64,000 nucleotides of DNA from Eledone cirrhosa. Its lineage: Eukaryota. The position numbers and the translations under genes are program-made. Below are positions 2,426-51,843 of the stretch, in pieces. The notes under the pieces were generated by a model that saw only the letters and a list, made by a program, of their open reading frames with translations, was not told where the DNA came from and made no database searches. The stretch lies in NCBI GenBank assembly GCA_964016885.1, contig CAXHJY010001673.1, forward strand, positions 69,366-133,365, written 5' to 3'. Position 1 is the stretch's first letter. Every line of letters starts with the position of its first letter.

Positions 2426-2554
2426 AAGTTTTATTTAAATTGTTGGGTTAACAACGAGTAAATATTTATAACTGATATAAAAGCACTCAACAAGTATTTG
2501 GAGTATATTTACGATATTAAATAAATGGAAACTATATTTATAAAACCATATTTA

Positions 2555-2616
2555 TTTCATTATATATATTTCAGGGATATCATATTAAAAATATGTTATG
2601 CCTTCTTCAGACAAAA
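2555..2616 (-). ncRNA. Type I hammerhead ribozyme (left arm copy)
   Basis: Reverse complement of 2713-2774. Confidence 0.7.
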
Positions 2617-2712
2617 TACAATATAAACAGTCTTATAAATAGATAGATTCGACATACCTTTCAACTTCGACTTCTATTTGAAAAGTTGATTTATAAGACT
2701 GTTTATATTGTA

Positions 2713-2774
2713 TTTTGTCTGAAGAAGGCATAACATATTTTTAATATGATATCCCTGAAATATATATAATGAAA
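2713..2774 (+). ncRNA. Type I hammerhead ribozyme
   Basis: UUUUGU-CUGAAGA-AGG...CCU-GAA-AUAUAUAU-A^AUGAAA. Intact core, stem I 6 bp with two GU pairs, palindromic stem III. Confidence 0.7.
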
Positions 2775-2816
2775 TAAATATGGTTTTATAAATATAGTTT
2801 CCATTTATTTAATATC

Positions 2817-2892
<76 letters not shown>

Positions 2893-6619: not shown

Positions 6620-6679
6620 TTCCATTTACCAGTGGTTTCTTAAAAGCAAAAGGTTTTGCTTTCAATCCTCAGAACGGAA
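6620..6679 (-). ncRNA. Type I hammerhead ribozyme, family C
   Basis: UUCCGUU-CUGAGGA-UUGAAAGCAAA(accu)UUUGCUUUUAA-GAA-ACC(acu)GGU-A^AAUGGAA. Stem I 7 bp, stem II 11 bp, GUA cleavage triplet. Confidence 0.85.
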
Positions 6680-22800: not shown

Positions 22801-24355
22801 ACCCACACTCTTAATCTACGGCTCTGCTGGTTCAAGAAATAATAAAGTGAAACTCTTGATGTGAGAAAATACGTATATATTAGATATAAATTTATTACAT
22901 CGTGTTTATAGTTCAACTACTTACATATCCTTAATTTATTTGGAGGAAATATGAAAATTAGAACGCGGTAATTTTAATTATGAACATAATATAAATTTTA
23001 TCTTGACTATTATATGTATGTATTATGCAGCATTTTAAATTTTACATCAATTTATTTCTGTTTCATATGTATTTTGTATTTTTCTCACACACACACGTTC
23101 TTTTGTCTCTCCAATGTAGTTGTCTAATTGTACTGAGAAACGTGTGACTTGAACACTTTAGCGAAGTTTTAGTTGAAAATATTAACCTCTTCATCTATGT
23201 GTTTTGTGTCACTAACTCTGGAATGATGTAATTATTTCAACATACGTCGCTAGAAAACCTCCCCCAGCCCTCTATCTGCCTCAACAGTTCACCTTCGCCC
23301 TAATAAAACTGCCACAGCTGCTACAGGAGGAGTAACGAAATTTAAAATCACAAATTACCGAGAAGATGAGAGTCTTTTCTATATTTTCTCTGTCATTTTG
23401 TTAACATTTCCTTCATCCCTTTACCATCGCCAGGAAATCTGGGATAATCTCCAACAAGGGGAAAACTAATTGTGTTCGACCAGCTAGCGAAGGAGGAACA
23501 ATCTGTTATTTCTAATTACTGCCGTTGCAAATTAGTCTTCGACTGGATTGTCCAGTCTTGATTAGAAAATCTGACTGCGAACGGCTTATCAATCAAAGCA
23601 ATTGAGACCAGTTGTCTAGATTCCAAATATCACGCCAGACGTAGAAGACTAACGATTGACAGCGGGAAATGCCGCTCGGAGCAGAGTATGTAGTCGGTCT
23701 TCAGAAGCTGAAATCAAAATTTAATTAAGTGGAAAGAATGAAATACTTTGGTAGAGCACATAAAAATAAAGAAAGGGAGAAAAAGAACAGAATAAACGAT
23801 TTAACAGACAGCTTTCTGGAGACTCTATAACTGATGGTAGAAGAAAAAAATGTCTGAATGATCGATTGCAGAAAAAATTAAGTTGAATCTAGGTAGGGAA
23901 GAGCAGAATATCTCTCCATTACTATTTTTGTTTTAATTTTTGTCATTTTACAAAATATTCCTGCAAAATATATTTGCTCGTCGTTTTATTTCCTACTCTA
24001 ATTTCATTTTGTAATATTTGCTCTTCTATGAAAAAGAAAAAAATGACATGAACATCCCATTGTTATAATATTAATATTTATGATTTCGTACATGATATTT
24101 TATGATATTATTTCATAAACAAGAAGCTATCTGATAGCCGACATATGCTTATCAATTTGATCGCTAAACATTATCTCTTATATATCAAGTGTAGAAAAAG
24201 AAACAACAAAAAAAAACATTTCTAGCTTTGAAAACAAAACAAATTCAAATTCGTACAAATATTTATCCGATGATCGGGAAAATTGATATGTTCACTCTTT
24301 GTCCATATTTTCAGCAAGTACATAATAATAACAATAATAATAATAATAATAATAA

Positions 24356-25068
24356 TATTTACAAGGAGGAGGCTAGCCCACTGTGCAGGATCTGTGGAGA
24401 GAGAGAGGAGACTGTGGCTCACATTGTATCCGAGTGTAAACACCTAGCCCAGACTCACTATAAGGGCTGGAGACATGATGTGATGGGCAGGGTGATCCAC
24501 TGGCACCTATGCAAAGTAAACAATTTACCACATTCTGAGAAGTGGTATGAGCATAAGCCAGAGTCGGTGATAGAAAACGATCAGGTGAAGGTGCTGTGGG
24601 ATTAAAATCCCACAGCACCTTCACCTGATCGTTTTCTATACAGACAGACAAGAAACTGGAACACAATAGACCTGACCTGGTGGTTTTGGACAAAGAAAAA
24701 AGATCGTGCCTGATTGTGGATGTGGCCTGCCCATTCGACACGAGAGTGCAAGAGAAGGAGAGGGAGAAAATTAACCGATACCAGGACTTAAAGTGGCAGG
24801 TAAAAAGGATTTGGAACTGCCATGAAGTCAAAGTGGTCCCGATTGTCATAGGCGCACTAGGTACTATCTCAAAAAGTTTCCAGGGATGGTTAAAGAAAAT
24901 TGGCCCCGCCACGCTTTTTGGAACACTTCAAAAGGCATGCTTGCTGGGAACAGCAAGAACCCTGCGATACGCCATGAATATCTGAGGCTGCAGGTAGTGG
25001 CTTGATATTCATTTCAACAAACTTTCCAGTTAACTAACATCAATGACTGAGACTCAAAGAACAACAAC

Positions 25069-33065: not shown

Positions 33066-33136
33066 TATTTTATTATGCGCATTTCAAAAACAAATATCAT
33101 CATGAGATGACATTTGCGTTTTCGTCAGATAAAATA
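33066..33136 (-). ncRNA. Type I hammerhead ribozyme
   Basis: UAUUUUAU-CUGACGA-AAAc-GCAAAUGUCAUC(ucau)GAUGAUAUUUGU-uUUU-GAA-AUGCGCAU-A^AUAAAAUA. Perfect 8-bp stem I, long stem II, palindromic stem III. Confidence 0.88.
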
Positions 33137-51040: not shown

Positions 51041-51046
<6 letters not shown>

Positions 51047-51302
51047 AACGAGTAGGACCTCGACGGCTGAGCTCAAGCCGTTTCGACGGCTAATTCTGGA
51101 CTCTACTACCCTAAGTATTGAGTACTTTGGTGCGTTATGGTTCACCTGGTTCCTTACCACATTTCCTCCGTTATATATATATATATAGGAACAAGTAAGA
51201 CCCCCGGGGGTCTTACTTGTTCCTATTACCCACTCTACTACTCTAAGTATTGAGTACTTTGGTGCGTTATGGTCCACCTGGTTCCTTACAACATTTCCTC
51301 CG

Positions 51303-51305
<3 letters not shown>
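51041..51305 (+). mobile_element. Two tandem family A elements
   Basis: 51041-51173 (inverted arm plus tail) and 51185-51305 (42-bp perfect palindrome plus tail). Confidence 0.9.
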
Positions 51306-51356
<51 letters not shown>

Positions 51357-51359
51357 TAT

Positions 51360-51782
51360 CACGATAAATTAACGGAGGCATAGGCCCTCGCTATTCCCTG
51401 TTTATTCTAGCAGTTCGTCCCTCAGAGGCCACCGGTTCACTGCCCTTAAACACGCTGTGACTCCTCTCTCCCACGTGTAGCTGGACAGTCAATTGTAAAA
51501 TTCTCTTAGTGTTGTCTGAAATGTATGGCCTTACACACGCTGATGAACCGAGACTAGACCATTTCTTTCAACAAATTTTTGGTGAAACATATCTTTGGAT
51601 TTGTACGTGTGTTATATAGTTATAGAGGTATTTATTTACGCTTTAATTTATATTTTTAATTATCGTGTCTATAGTCTGCCTCTCATAGGTTATAGATTCC
51701 ATGCACTGGTGGTTTTTCCCCTGTATTATTGATAACGCACTGTATACACGTATCTCTCTCTGGTGTGTTACCTTTTCAACAT

Positions 51783-51788
<6 letters not shown>
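51360..51788 (+). mobile_element. ~430-bp ribozyme element between (TA)n tracts
   Basis: Non-repetitive island bounded by TA tracts, containing a canonical hammerhead. Confidence 0.7.
51533..51612 (+). ncRNA. Canonical type I hammerhead ribozyme
   Basis: ACACACG-CUGAUGA-ACCGAGA...UUUUGGU-GAA-ACAuAUC(uuug)GAUuUGU-A^CGUGUGU. Stems of 7, 7 and 6 bp, GUA triplet. Confidence 0.9.

Positions 51789-51843
<55 letters not shown>

What the first reader, a model, noticed from the sequence alone, without database searches (positions are those of the whole stretch)
51533..51612. Fully canonical hammerhead that should fold as a monomer
Seen: 7-bp stem I, intact CUGAUGA/GAAA, 7-bp stem II with a 23-nt loop, 6-bp stem III with a tetraloop, GUA triplet. 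Unlike most motifs here it should not need dimerisation. Inference: if the region is transcribed on the + strand (e.g. as an intron), it would cut the RNA after 51605. Best first candidate for a wet-lab test.
Basis: partly seen in the sequence, partly recalled or inferred. Interest (0 to 1): 0.7.

Follow-up and report, generated by a model that had tools for sequence, protein, structure and literature searches.

The report
Hammerhead in a truncated Penelope-type retrozyme
The self-cutting RNA motif is real but is part of one truncated copy of a non-coding repeat present over a thousand times in this animal genome, likely spread by Penelope-type jumping-gene enzymes, so it is a new family of a known kind of mobile element rather than a one-off gene switch.

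Summary
The type I hammerhead is there and beyond chance, but it is not fully canonical. Stem III has a U·U mismatch, the base of stem II is A-U rather than G-C, and the hammerhead fold is predicted in about 1% of the ensemble. It sits in a 541-bp non-coding unit with over 1,000 copies. Insertions land in (TA)n and form tandems and back-to-back arms. The arms stop at two fixed points 88 nt apart, one of each in 63 of 67 classifiable pairs: the Penelope 'tail'. The window copy is under one unit long and has one ribozyme, so it cannot release a monomer. Copies read through the cut site (959 of 1,082), so the template was likely a re-ligated circle or uncut RNA. I found no excess of ends at the cut site, no editing scars and no RNA run. 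The scan already reported this class in this genome (310-478-bp families); I found no note on this family. Verdict: new member of a known kind.

The parts
51533..51612 (+). Type I hammerhead motif: stem I 7 bp; CUGAUGA; stem II 7 bp (A-U base pair, two G·U) with 23-nt loop; GAAA; stem III 5 of 6 pairs with a U·U mismatch and UUUG loop; GUA triplet
51605..51606 (+). Predicted self-cleavage bond (after A17); unit position 275/276
   Evidence: hammerhead consensus applied to the sequence; cleavage untested
51405..51789 (+). Long arm of the insertion: unit positions 74-453, 5'-truncated, ending at the family's short fixed 3' end; 95.6% identical to the reference unit L022:1428-1968
51356..51401 (-). 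Short inverted arm: unit positions 496-541, ending at the long fixed 3' end (the 88-nt tail side)
51304..51359 (.). (TA)n target tract, left
51787..51821 (.). (TA)n target tract, right
51524..51624 (+). Predicted distal extension of stem I: 51524-29 with 51619-24 (6 bp) beyond a 3x6-nt internal loop
   Evidence: 98.4% of cells paired in 55 copies, one-sided changes only
51518..51565 (+). Candidate pseudoknot: 51518-23 pairs with loop II 51560-65 (6 bp, -3.3 kcal/mol as a duplex)
   Evidence: 97.5% of cells paired in 55 copies, one A-U to G·U subfamily change, no two-sided change; inferred

Best explanation
The motif is the hammerhead of a 541-bp non-coding repeat with more than a thousand genomic copies, likely a non-autonomous Penelope-like element (non-LTR retrozyme), and the window holds one truncated two-armed insertion of it. 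Shown: copy number, unit length, lack of coding capacity, (TA)n targets, tandem and back-to-back layout, two fixed 3' ends 88 nt apart, one shared haplotype across both arms, and read-through of the cut site. Inferred: a multi-unit transcript from an array self-cleaves once per unit, probably slowly and as a monomer helped by the pseudoknot or by protein. The unit RNA is then ligated into a circle, where the alternative hairpin keeps the ribozyme off. A Penelope RT-GIY-YIG enzyme cuts (TA)n DNA on both strands and primes at the two internal start sites (unit 453 and 541), giving the two arms. The window copy has one hammerhead and less than one unit, so it cannot yield a monomer or circle; if transcribed on the + strand it could at most be cut once.
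For: Family size: 230 exact core 30-mers with control 0; 1,082 exact 27-mers; 227 further hits, 90 of the first 100 an older variant. Period 541, with arrays up to 2,359 bp, about 4.4 units. Longest stop-to-stop frame 87 aa; no similarity to 19 Penelope ORFs of this genome, best E 0.11. In 148 de-duplicated loci, 234 of 283 arms end at unit 541 (123) or 453 (111), and 221 of those 234 run into (TA)n. Of 96 back-to-back pairs, 63 join a 453 end with a 541 end, 4 join like ends and 29 have one end unclassified. This matches the Penelope tail (PMC8557442), which lies between two RT start sites of an enzyme that cuts and extends both strands of AT-rich DNA (PMC11167929). Opposite arms agree at common polymorphic sites in 289 of 296 comparisons, against 66.7% between insertions. 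The genome is rich in RT+GIY-YIG elements (10,596 GIY-YIG candidates; both domains in 4 of 8 ORFs, and in L171); a surveyed element shows the same two-end, (TA)n pattern. Across subfamilies the only recurrent subgroup-level core change is at the free position N7 (8 of 17 mid copies); stem I position 3 is G-C in 16 of 20 old copies and A-U in 35 of 35 others.
Against: Covariation does not exceed shuffles (384 of 500 reach the score), and the stem I compensation depends on how a 2-nt indel is aligned. Core conservation between old and young subfamilies (0 of 12 columns differ, against 47 of 393 outside the ribozyme) is too small a sample to be significant. The 10.1-11.1 position is an A·C mismatch in most old and mid copies. 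Thermodynamic models disfavour the hammerhead fold in all 7 copies folded. There is no excess of 5' ends at the cut site (4 true truncations, against 4 at a control position) and no A>G editing excess. In the anole element, hammerhead cleavage was not needed for insertion in vitro, and 8 of 9 Xenopus retrozyme dimers did not cleave. The partner enzyme is not identified.
Confidence: 0.7

Rival explanations
1. Same element and same Penelope machinery, but the template is an uncut linear read-through multimer and the hammerhead is a slow or protein-dependent passenger with no part in copying.
For: Copies read through the cut site (959 of 1,082) with no end enrichment there. The hammerhead fold is disfavoured. 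Unprocessed RNA was the main substrate for the anole enzyme. Units of array L077 differ, with private alleles in an alternating pattern.
Against: Core and helices persist across subfamilies about 18% apart from the reference unit, with tolerated changes. Tandem pieces within an insertion share one haplotype (354 of 362 comparisons), and the two full units of array L067 are identical to each other yet at most 98.2% identical to any other sampled unit, as expected from one circle. A homogeneous source array would give the same result.
Confidence: 0.25
2. The 541-bp unit is the pseudo-LTR of an autonomous Penelope element whose ORF-bearing copies were not sampled.
For: Tail, tandem and inverted layout and hammerhead are all features of Penelope terminal repeats. 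One locus (L126) has a Penelope ORF fragment collinear with an arm's 5' end.
Against: Units join head-to-tail directly with no ORF between them. None of 148 loci shows an ORF joined at the unit boundary; the L126 junction is at unit 352 and occurs once. The unit has no long frame and no protein similarity. The sample is only about a tenth of the copies and mostly from the largest contigs.
Confidence: 0.08
3. This copy has been co-opted as a cis-acting cleaver of a host intron or UTR.
For: The motif is intact and may fold as a monomer.
Against: It is an ordinary young copy, 97-98% identical to the best 40 others; the same ribozyme sequence recurs at other loci. No host exon was found among 11 ORFs tested. 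With real flanks the predicted fold share falls to 1e-4.
Confidence: 0.03

Closest known systems
Metazoan non-LTR retrozymes (Cervera and de la Peña 2020, PMC7229834, parts 2-4 of 6 read; Li, Clavereau and Pollet 2026, bioRxiv 10.64898/2026.07.22.740005, parts 1-3 of 5 read)
   Same: Non-coding, low-GC (38.8%) tandem unit with one type I hammerhead per unit; short arrays and solo copies; co-occurs with Penelope elements, which both papers propose as the mobilisers.
   Different: The 541-bp unit is longer than the 150-450 bp of the 2020 paper but inside the 51-972 bp of the 2026 preprint. Stem III is long and non-palindromic and loop II is long. Insertions show the two-ended Penelope tail and back-to-back arms, which the parts I read do not describe for retrozymes. 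Circular RNA is not shown here.
EN+ Penelope-like elements, e.g. Poseidon of Anolis (Frangieh et al. 2024, PMC11167929, parts 1-2 of 4 read; Craig et al. 2021, PMC8557442, passages read)
   Same: 5' truncation, partial tandems, adjacent inverted copy, one-sided tail, AT-rich or microsatellite targets, hammerhead upstream of the RT start sites.
   Different: No RT or GIY-YIG ORF; the tail is 88 nt rather than 30-40; the hammerhead is not of the minimal, dimer-dependent type.
Large-stem-III type I hammerheads of fungal and protist Penelope elements (Cervera and de la Peña 2014, PMC4209133, parts 1-2 of 4 read) and pseudoknotted hammerheads (Perreault et al. 2011, PMC3088659, passages read)
   Same: Large helix III with no recognisable canonical loop-loop contact; a candidate 6-bp pseudoknot between the stem I and stem II regions.
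   Different: Animal host, non-autonomous element, A-U or A·C at 10.1-11.1; activity untested.
Sister retrozyme-like families of 310-311, 422, 467-468 and 478 bp noted earlier in this genome (AI notes)
   Same: Two arms, two fixed ends, (TA)n targets, hammerhead per unit.
   Different: Different sequence (no look-alike found by sequence), unit length and tail length; arrays sampled here are short, and I found no editing scars or cut-site ends.

Membership tests
Type I hammerhead ribozyme | Core CUGANGA, GAAA and UH triplet | tested here: met
Type I hammerhead ribozyme | Three helices around the core, stem I open | tested here: met
   Stems of 7, 7 and 5-of-6 pairs; helices paired in 76-98% of cells in 55 copies, stem III counted separately
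Type I hammerhead ribozyme (canonical form) | G10.1-C11.1 pair | tested here: not met
   A-U in the window and 16 of 18 young copies; A·C in 13 of 17 mid and 12 of 20 old copies
Type I hammerhead ribozyme (canonical form) | [quoted passage not shown] | tested here: inconclusive
   Candidate pseudoknot 97.5% paired, without two-sided changes
Type I hammerhead ribozyme | Match to an Rfam hammerhead model | tested here: not met
   0 hits at gathering score in the window; 0 at E<=10 on a unit
Type I hammerhead ribozyme | Site-specific self-cleavage | not testable with these tools
   Needs an assay; the genomic proxy (ends at the cut site) was negative
Non-LTR retrozyme | Tandem units of a few hundred bp, each with a type I hammerhead | tested here: met
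   541-bp period, up to four hammerheads in a row
Non-LTR retrozyme | Non-coding, GC below 50% | tested here: met
   Longest frame 87 aa; GC 38.8%
Non-LTR retrozyme | At least two consecutive complete ribozymes at a locus ('active' in the 2026 preprint) | tested here: not met
   Not met by the window copy (one ribozyme); met by other loci of the family such as L077, L067 and L051
Non-LTR retrozyme | Expressed as linear and circular unit-length RNA | not testable with these tools
   No RNA holder listed
Non-LTR retrozyme | Target-site duplication longer than 4 bp when present | tested here: inconclusive
   Ends lie in (TA)n, so a duplication cannot be read
Non-LTR retrozyme | No LTR, primer-binding site or polypurine tract | tested here: inconclusive
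   No LTR layout in the mapped loci; primer-binding site and polypurine tract were not searched
Autonomous Penelope-like element | ORF with RT and GIY-YIG endonuclease | tested here: not met
   None in the unit or joined at its boundary in 148 loci
Penelope-type insertion | One-sided tail (two fixed 3' ends), 5' truncation, tandem and inverted arms | tested here: met
Penelope-type insertion | AT-rich or microsatellite target | tested here: met
   221 of 234 fixed ends run into (TA)n

The most novel reading that the evidence does not exclude
This family carries a switchable, monomer-active hammerhead: a long-range pseudoknot between loop II and the strand beyond an extended stem I turns it on in the nascent multimer, and a hairpin kept across subfamilies turns it off in the 541-nt circle. 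A dimeric Penelope enzyme then copies the circle from two start sites. The chimeric insertion L079 records one enzyme complex carrying both this RNA and the RNA of its autonomous partner, naming the enzyme that mobilises an animal retrozyme.
Probability: 0.15. Interest if true: 0.65.

Novelty: new member of a known kind. Interest (0 to 1): 0.3.

Why it matters
As a single locus it matters little: it is one dead-end copy among more than a thousand. As a family it adds genomic evidence that animal hammerhead retrozymes are inserted by Penelope enzymes, a link the papers read here propose from co-occurrence and phylogeny. It also supplies a defined test system: a unit RNA, two predicted RT start sites, a candidate partner enzyme, and a hammerhead whose long stem III lets cleavage be studied without dimer formation. 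The scan has already reported the same class several times in this genome, with longer arrays, which lowers the added value.

Tried and rejected
(1) Genomic fossil of in-vivo cleavage. Three of the first 100 sites were truncated exactly at the cut site. The genome-wide test gave 9 hits, of which 4 were true truncations, against 7 hits with 4 true truncations at a control position 8 nt upstream. Rejected. The first design was swamped by an older subfamily. (2) A-to-G editing scars on the hammerhead strand: none (A>G 17 against T>C 39 in young copies, rate ratio 0.72; 1.07 and 1.05 in mid and old). (3) Expression: no RNA holder listed; three runs of unrecorded kind were laid and gave only repeat contigs. 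This is no evidence either way. (4) Autonomous partner by sequence: the unit matched the 50 GIY-YIG loci only in a 40-50-nt AT-rich stretch at 78-80% and in one nested 66-bp piece of the family itself; no match at protein level. L110, with three copies about 3 kb apart, is a composite duplication with no Penelope ORF hit. Of 19 non-(TA)n 5' junctions only L079 is a clean foreign 3' end; L063, L015 and L032 are not. (5) Formal covariation: not above shuffles. One search was mis-indexed except for the pseudoknot helix, and for the distal stem. (6) Promoter: no tRNA, no A box, only one-mismatch B-box-like words. (7) A covariance model was not built, because a genome search would return the family's own copies first. 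(8) Print searches found no description of this family. Supplements were not read; those of PMC7229834 and PMC8557442 may list cephalopod elements.

Full report
Observation. The motif is at the stated place: stem I 51533-39 / 51606-12, CUGAUGA 51540-46, stem II 51547-53 / 51577-83 with a 23-nt loop, GAAA 51584-87, stem III 51588-93 / 51598-603 with a UUUG loop, and GUA with the predicted cut at 51605/51606. A strict descriptor finds it once in the window and never in 300 locally shuffled windows. It is less canonical than reported. Stem III has a U·U mismatch, and stem II opens with A-U and holds two G·U pairs. Rfam does not match it. The constrained hammerhead fold is -13.8 kcal/mol against a minimum of -14.5, but it makes up about 1% of the ensemble, and 1e-4 with 443 nt of flanks (no tertiary contacts in the model).

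What it belongs to. The surrounding 381 bp have 2,275 candidate matches in the 3.0-Gb genome; the 40 scored are 97-98% identical, apart from the window itself. A 30-mer over the core occurs 230 times, a 27-mer just past the cut site 1,082 times, and a variant pattern another 227 times, mostly an older subfamily. Tandem copies define a 541-bp unit of 38.8% GC, with no frame over 87 aa and no tRNA. The host is an animal with a large (TA)n-rich genome; the label 'cephalopod' comes from earlier AI notes and was not tested.

Insertion anatomy. I mapped 160 family loci on one real unit (L022:1428-1968) and dropped 12 overlapping or duplicated ones, leaving 148. They were chosen through patterns in the ribozyme region, mostly on the largest contigs, so they are not a random sample. 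Of 283 arms, 123 end at unit 541, 111 at 453 and 49 elsewhere; 5' ends are scattered (before de-duplication). Of the 234 fixed ends, 221 run into (TA)n. Of 96 back-to-back pairs, 63 combine one 453 end with one 541 end, 4 combine like ends, and 29 have an unclassified end. The window copy is such a pair: unit 496-541 inverted at 51356-51401 and unit 74-453 at 51405-51789. At 13 common polymorphic sites, opposite arms agree in 289 of 296 comparisons and tandem pieces in 354 of 362, against 66.7% between insertions. One template variant therefore made each insertion.

Comparison with Penelope elements. Craig et al. describe 5' truncation, partial tandems, an adjacent inverted copy, a 30-40-bp tail at one end and microsatellite bias (PMC8557442, passages). 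Frangieh et al. show that a purified Penelope protein cuts and extends both strands of AT-rich DNA and starts reverse transcription at two internal sites that bound the tail; hammerhead cleavage was protein-assisted and not needed for insertion (PMC11167929, parts 1-2). This genome has 10,596 GIY-YIG candidates and ORFs with both RT and GIY-YIG. One family surveyed has its own two ends about 43 nt apart, in (TA)n. The 541-bp family has the footprint but no enzyme. That fits a non-autonomous element of the non-LTR retrozyme kind (PMC7229834, parts 2-4; bioRxiv 10.64898/2026.07.22.740005, parts 1-3).

Is the ribozyme under selection? In 55 aligned copies from three subfamilies, the only recurrent subgroup-level core change is U to G at the free position N7 (8 of 17 mid copies); old copies show only scattered core mutations. 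Young copies were selected on the core, so they do not count. Stem I position 3 is G-C in 16 of 20 old copies and A-U in all 35 others when read from the cut site. Position 10.1-11.1 is mostly A·C in old and mid copies and A-U in young ones. Stem III position 3 is G·U in old and mid copies, so the window's U·U is the derived state. A distal stem I (98.4% of cells paired) and a 6-bp pairing between loop II and 51518-23 (97.5%) are kept, with one-sided changes only, and covariation does not beat shuffles. Pseudoknots of this general kind are needed for fast cleavage in other hammerheads (PMC3088659, passages). A hairpin that buries the core is the predicted minimum in all 7 copies folded. The evidence fits a maintained but weak or regulated ribozyme; it does not prove activity.

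Template. Of 1,082 sites with the 27-mer after the cut, 959 also have the six bases before it, and arms run through the site for up to about 4.4 units. A cut linear monomer primed at unit 541 could give at most 266 nt, so the template was a circle or an uncut multimer. Truncation at the cut site is no more common than at a control position (4 against 4), and there is no A>G excess. The circle is favoured by analogy with the coral, mussel and axolotl retrozymes, and weakly by within-insertion homogeneity. The unit folds more stably as a circle than shuffles (z about -3.1 on 60 shuffles). The uncut-multimer rival stays open. No RNA holder was listed.

Partner. No autonomous element shares the unit's sequence in the loci sampled. 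One locus, L079, has a family arm ending at 541 joined 5'-to-5', over about five shared bases, to the last 137 nt of the L171-family Penelope element ending at that family's short end. This is the long-plus-short pattern of ordinary pairs. It is 1 of 19 non-(TA)n junctions, and two insertions plus a deletion would look the same, so it is only a lead.

Verdict. It is the ribozyme of a young, abundant, Penelope-type retrozyme family, here in a copy too short to propagate. Earlier notes of this scan describe the same class for other families in this genome; none matched this family by sequence, place or words. Five paper searches found no description of it; supplements were not read. New member of a known kind; interest 0.3.

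Noticed in passing
L079:2692-3240 (G000:C3, near 20899400): Two-armed insertion with one arm from the 541-bp family (long end) and the other from an RT+GIY-YIG Penelope element (short end); possible record of the mobilising partner.
   Followed up: partly
window 2510-2818: Back-to-back pair of another hammerhead-bearing repeat (cores at 2604-2610 minus and 2719-2725 plus) with a palindromic 6-nt stem III region, ending in (TA)n; likely another Penelope-type two-armed insertion whose ribozyme needs a dimer.
   Followed up: partly
window 33122-33128 (minus) and 6666-6672 (minus): Two more hammerhead-like motifs with short, palindromic or near-palindromic stem III regions.
   Followed up: no
window 51046-51304: Fragments of a different (TA)n-embedded repeat directly upstream, including a perfect palindrome at about 51188-51224; the same repeat recurs beside several family loci.
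   Followed up: no
window 24195-24985: Broken retroelement ORF fragments with a weak zf-RVT hit (E 7.5e-4); recalled resemblance to R2/R4-type elements, not tested.
   Followed up: no
L077:2602-4960: Array of about 4.4 units in which two private alleles alternate with period two, hinting at a dimeric template or later unequal exchange.
   Followed up: no
L126:2994-4321: A Penelope ORF fragment (58% identical to the L171 protein) is joined collinearly to the 5' end of a family arm, at a short hairpin; template switch or deletion.
   Followed up: partly
L161-L180: Several young RT+GIY-YIG families with open frames up to 1,096 aa; their hammerhead-like motifs often have U·U at the base of stem II, and one has a palindromic minimal stem III.
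   Followed up: no
L092, L095, L096, L109, L111, L130: A mid-age subgroup carries a 14-nt duplication within stem III of the hammerhead and still spread.
   Followed up: no
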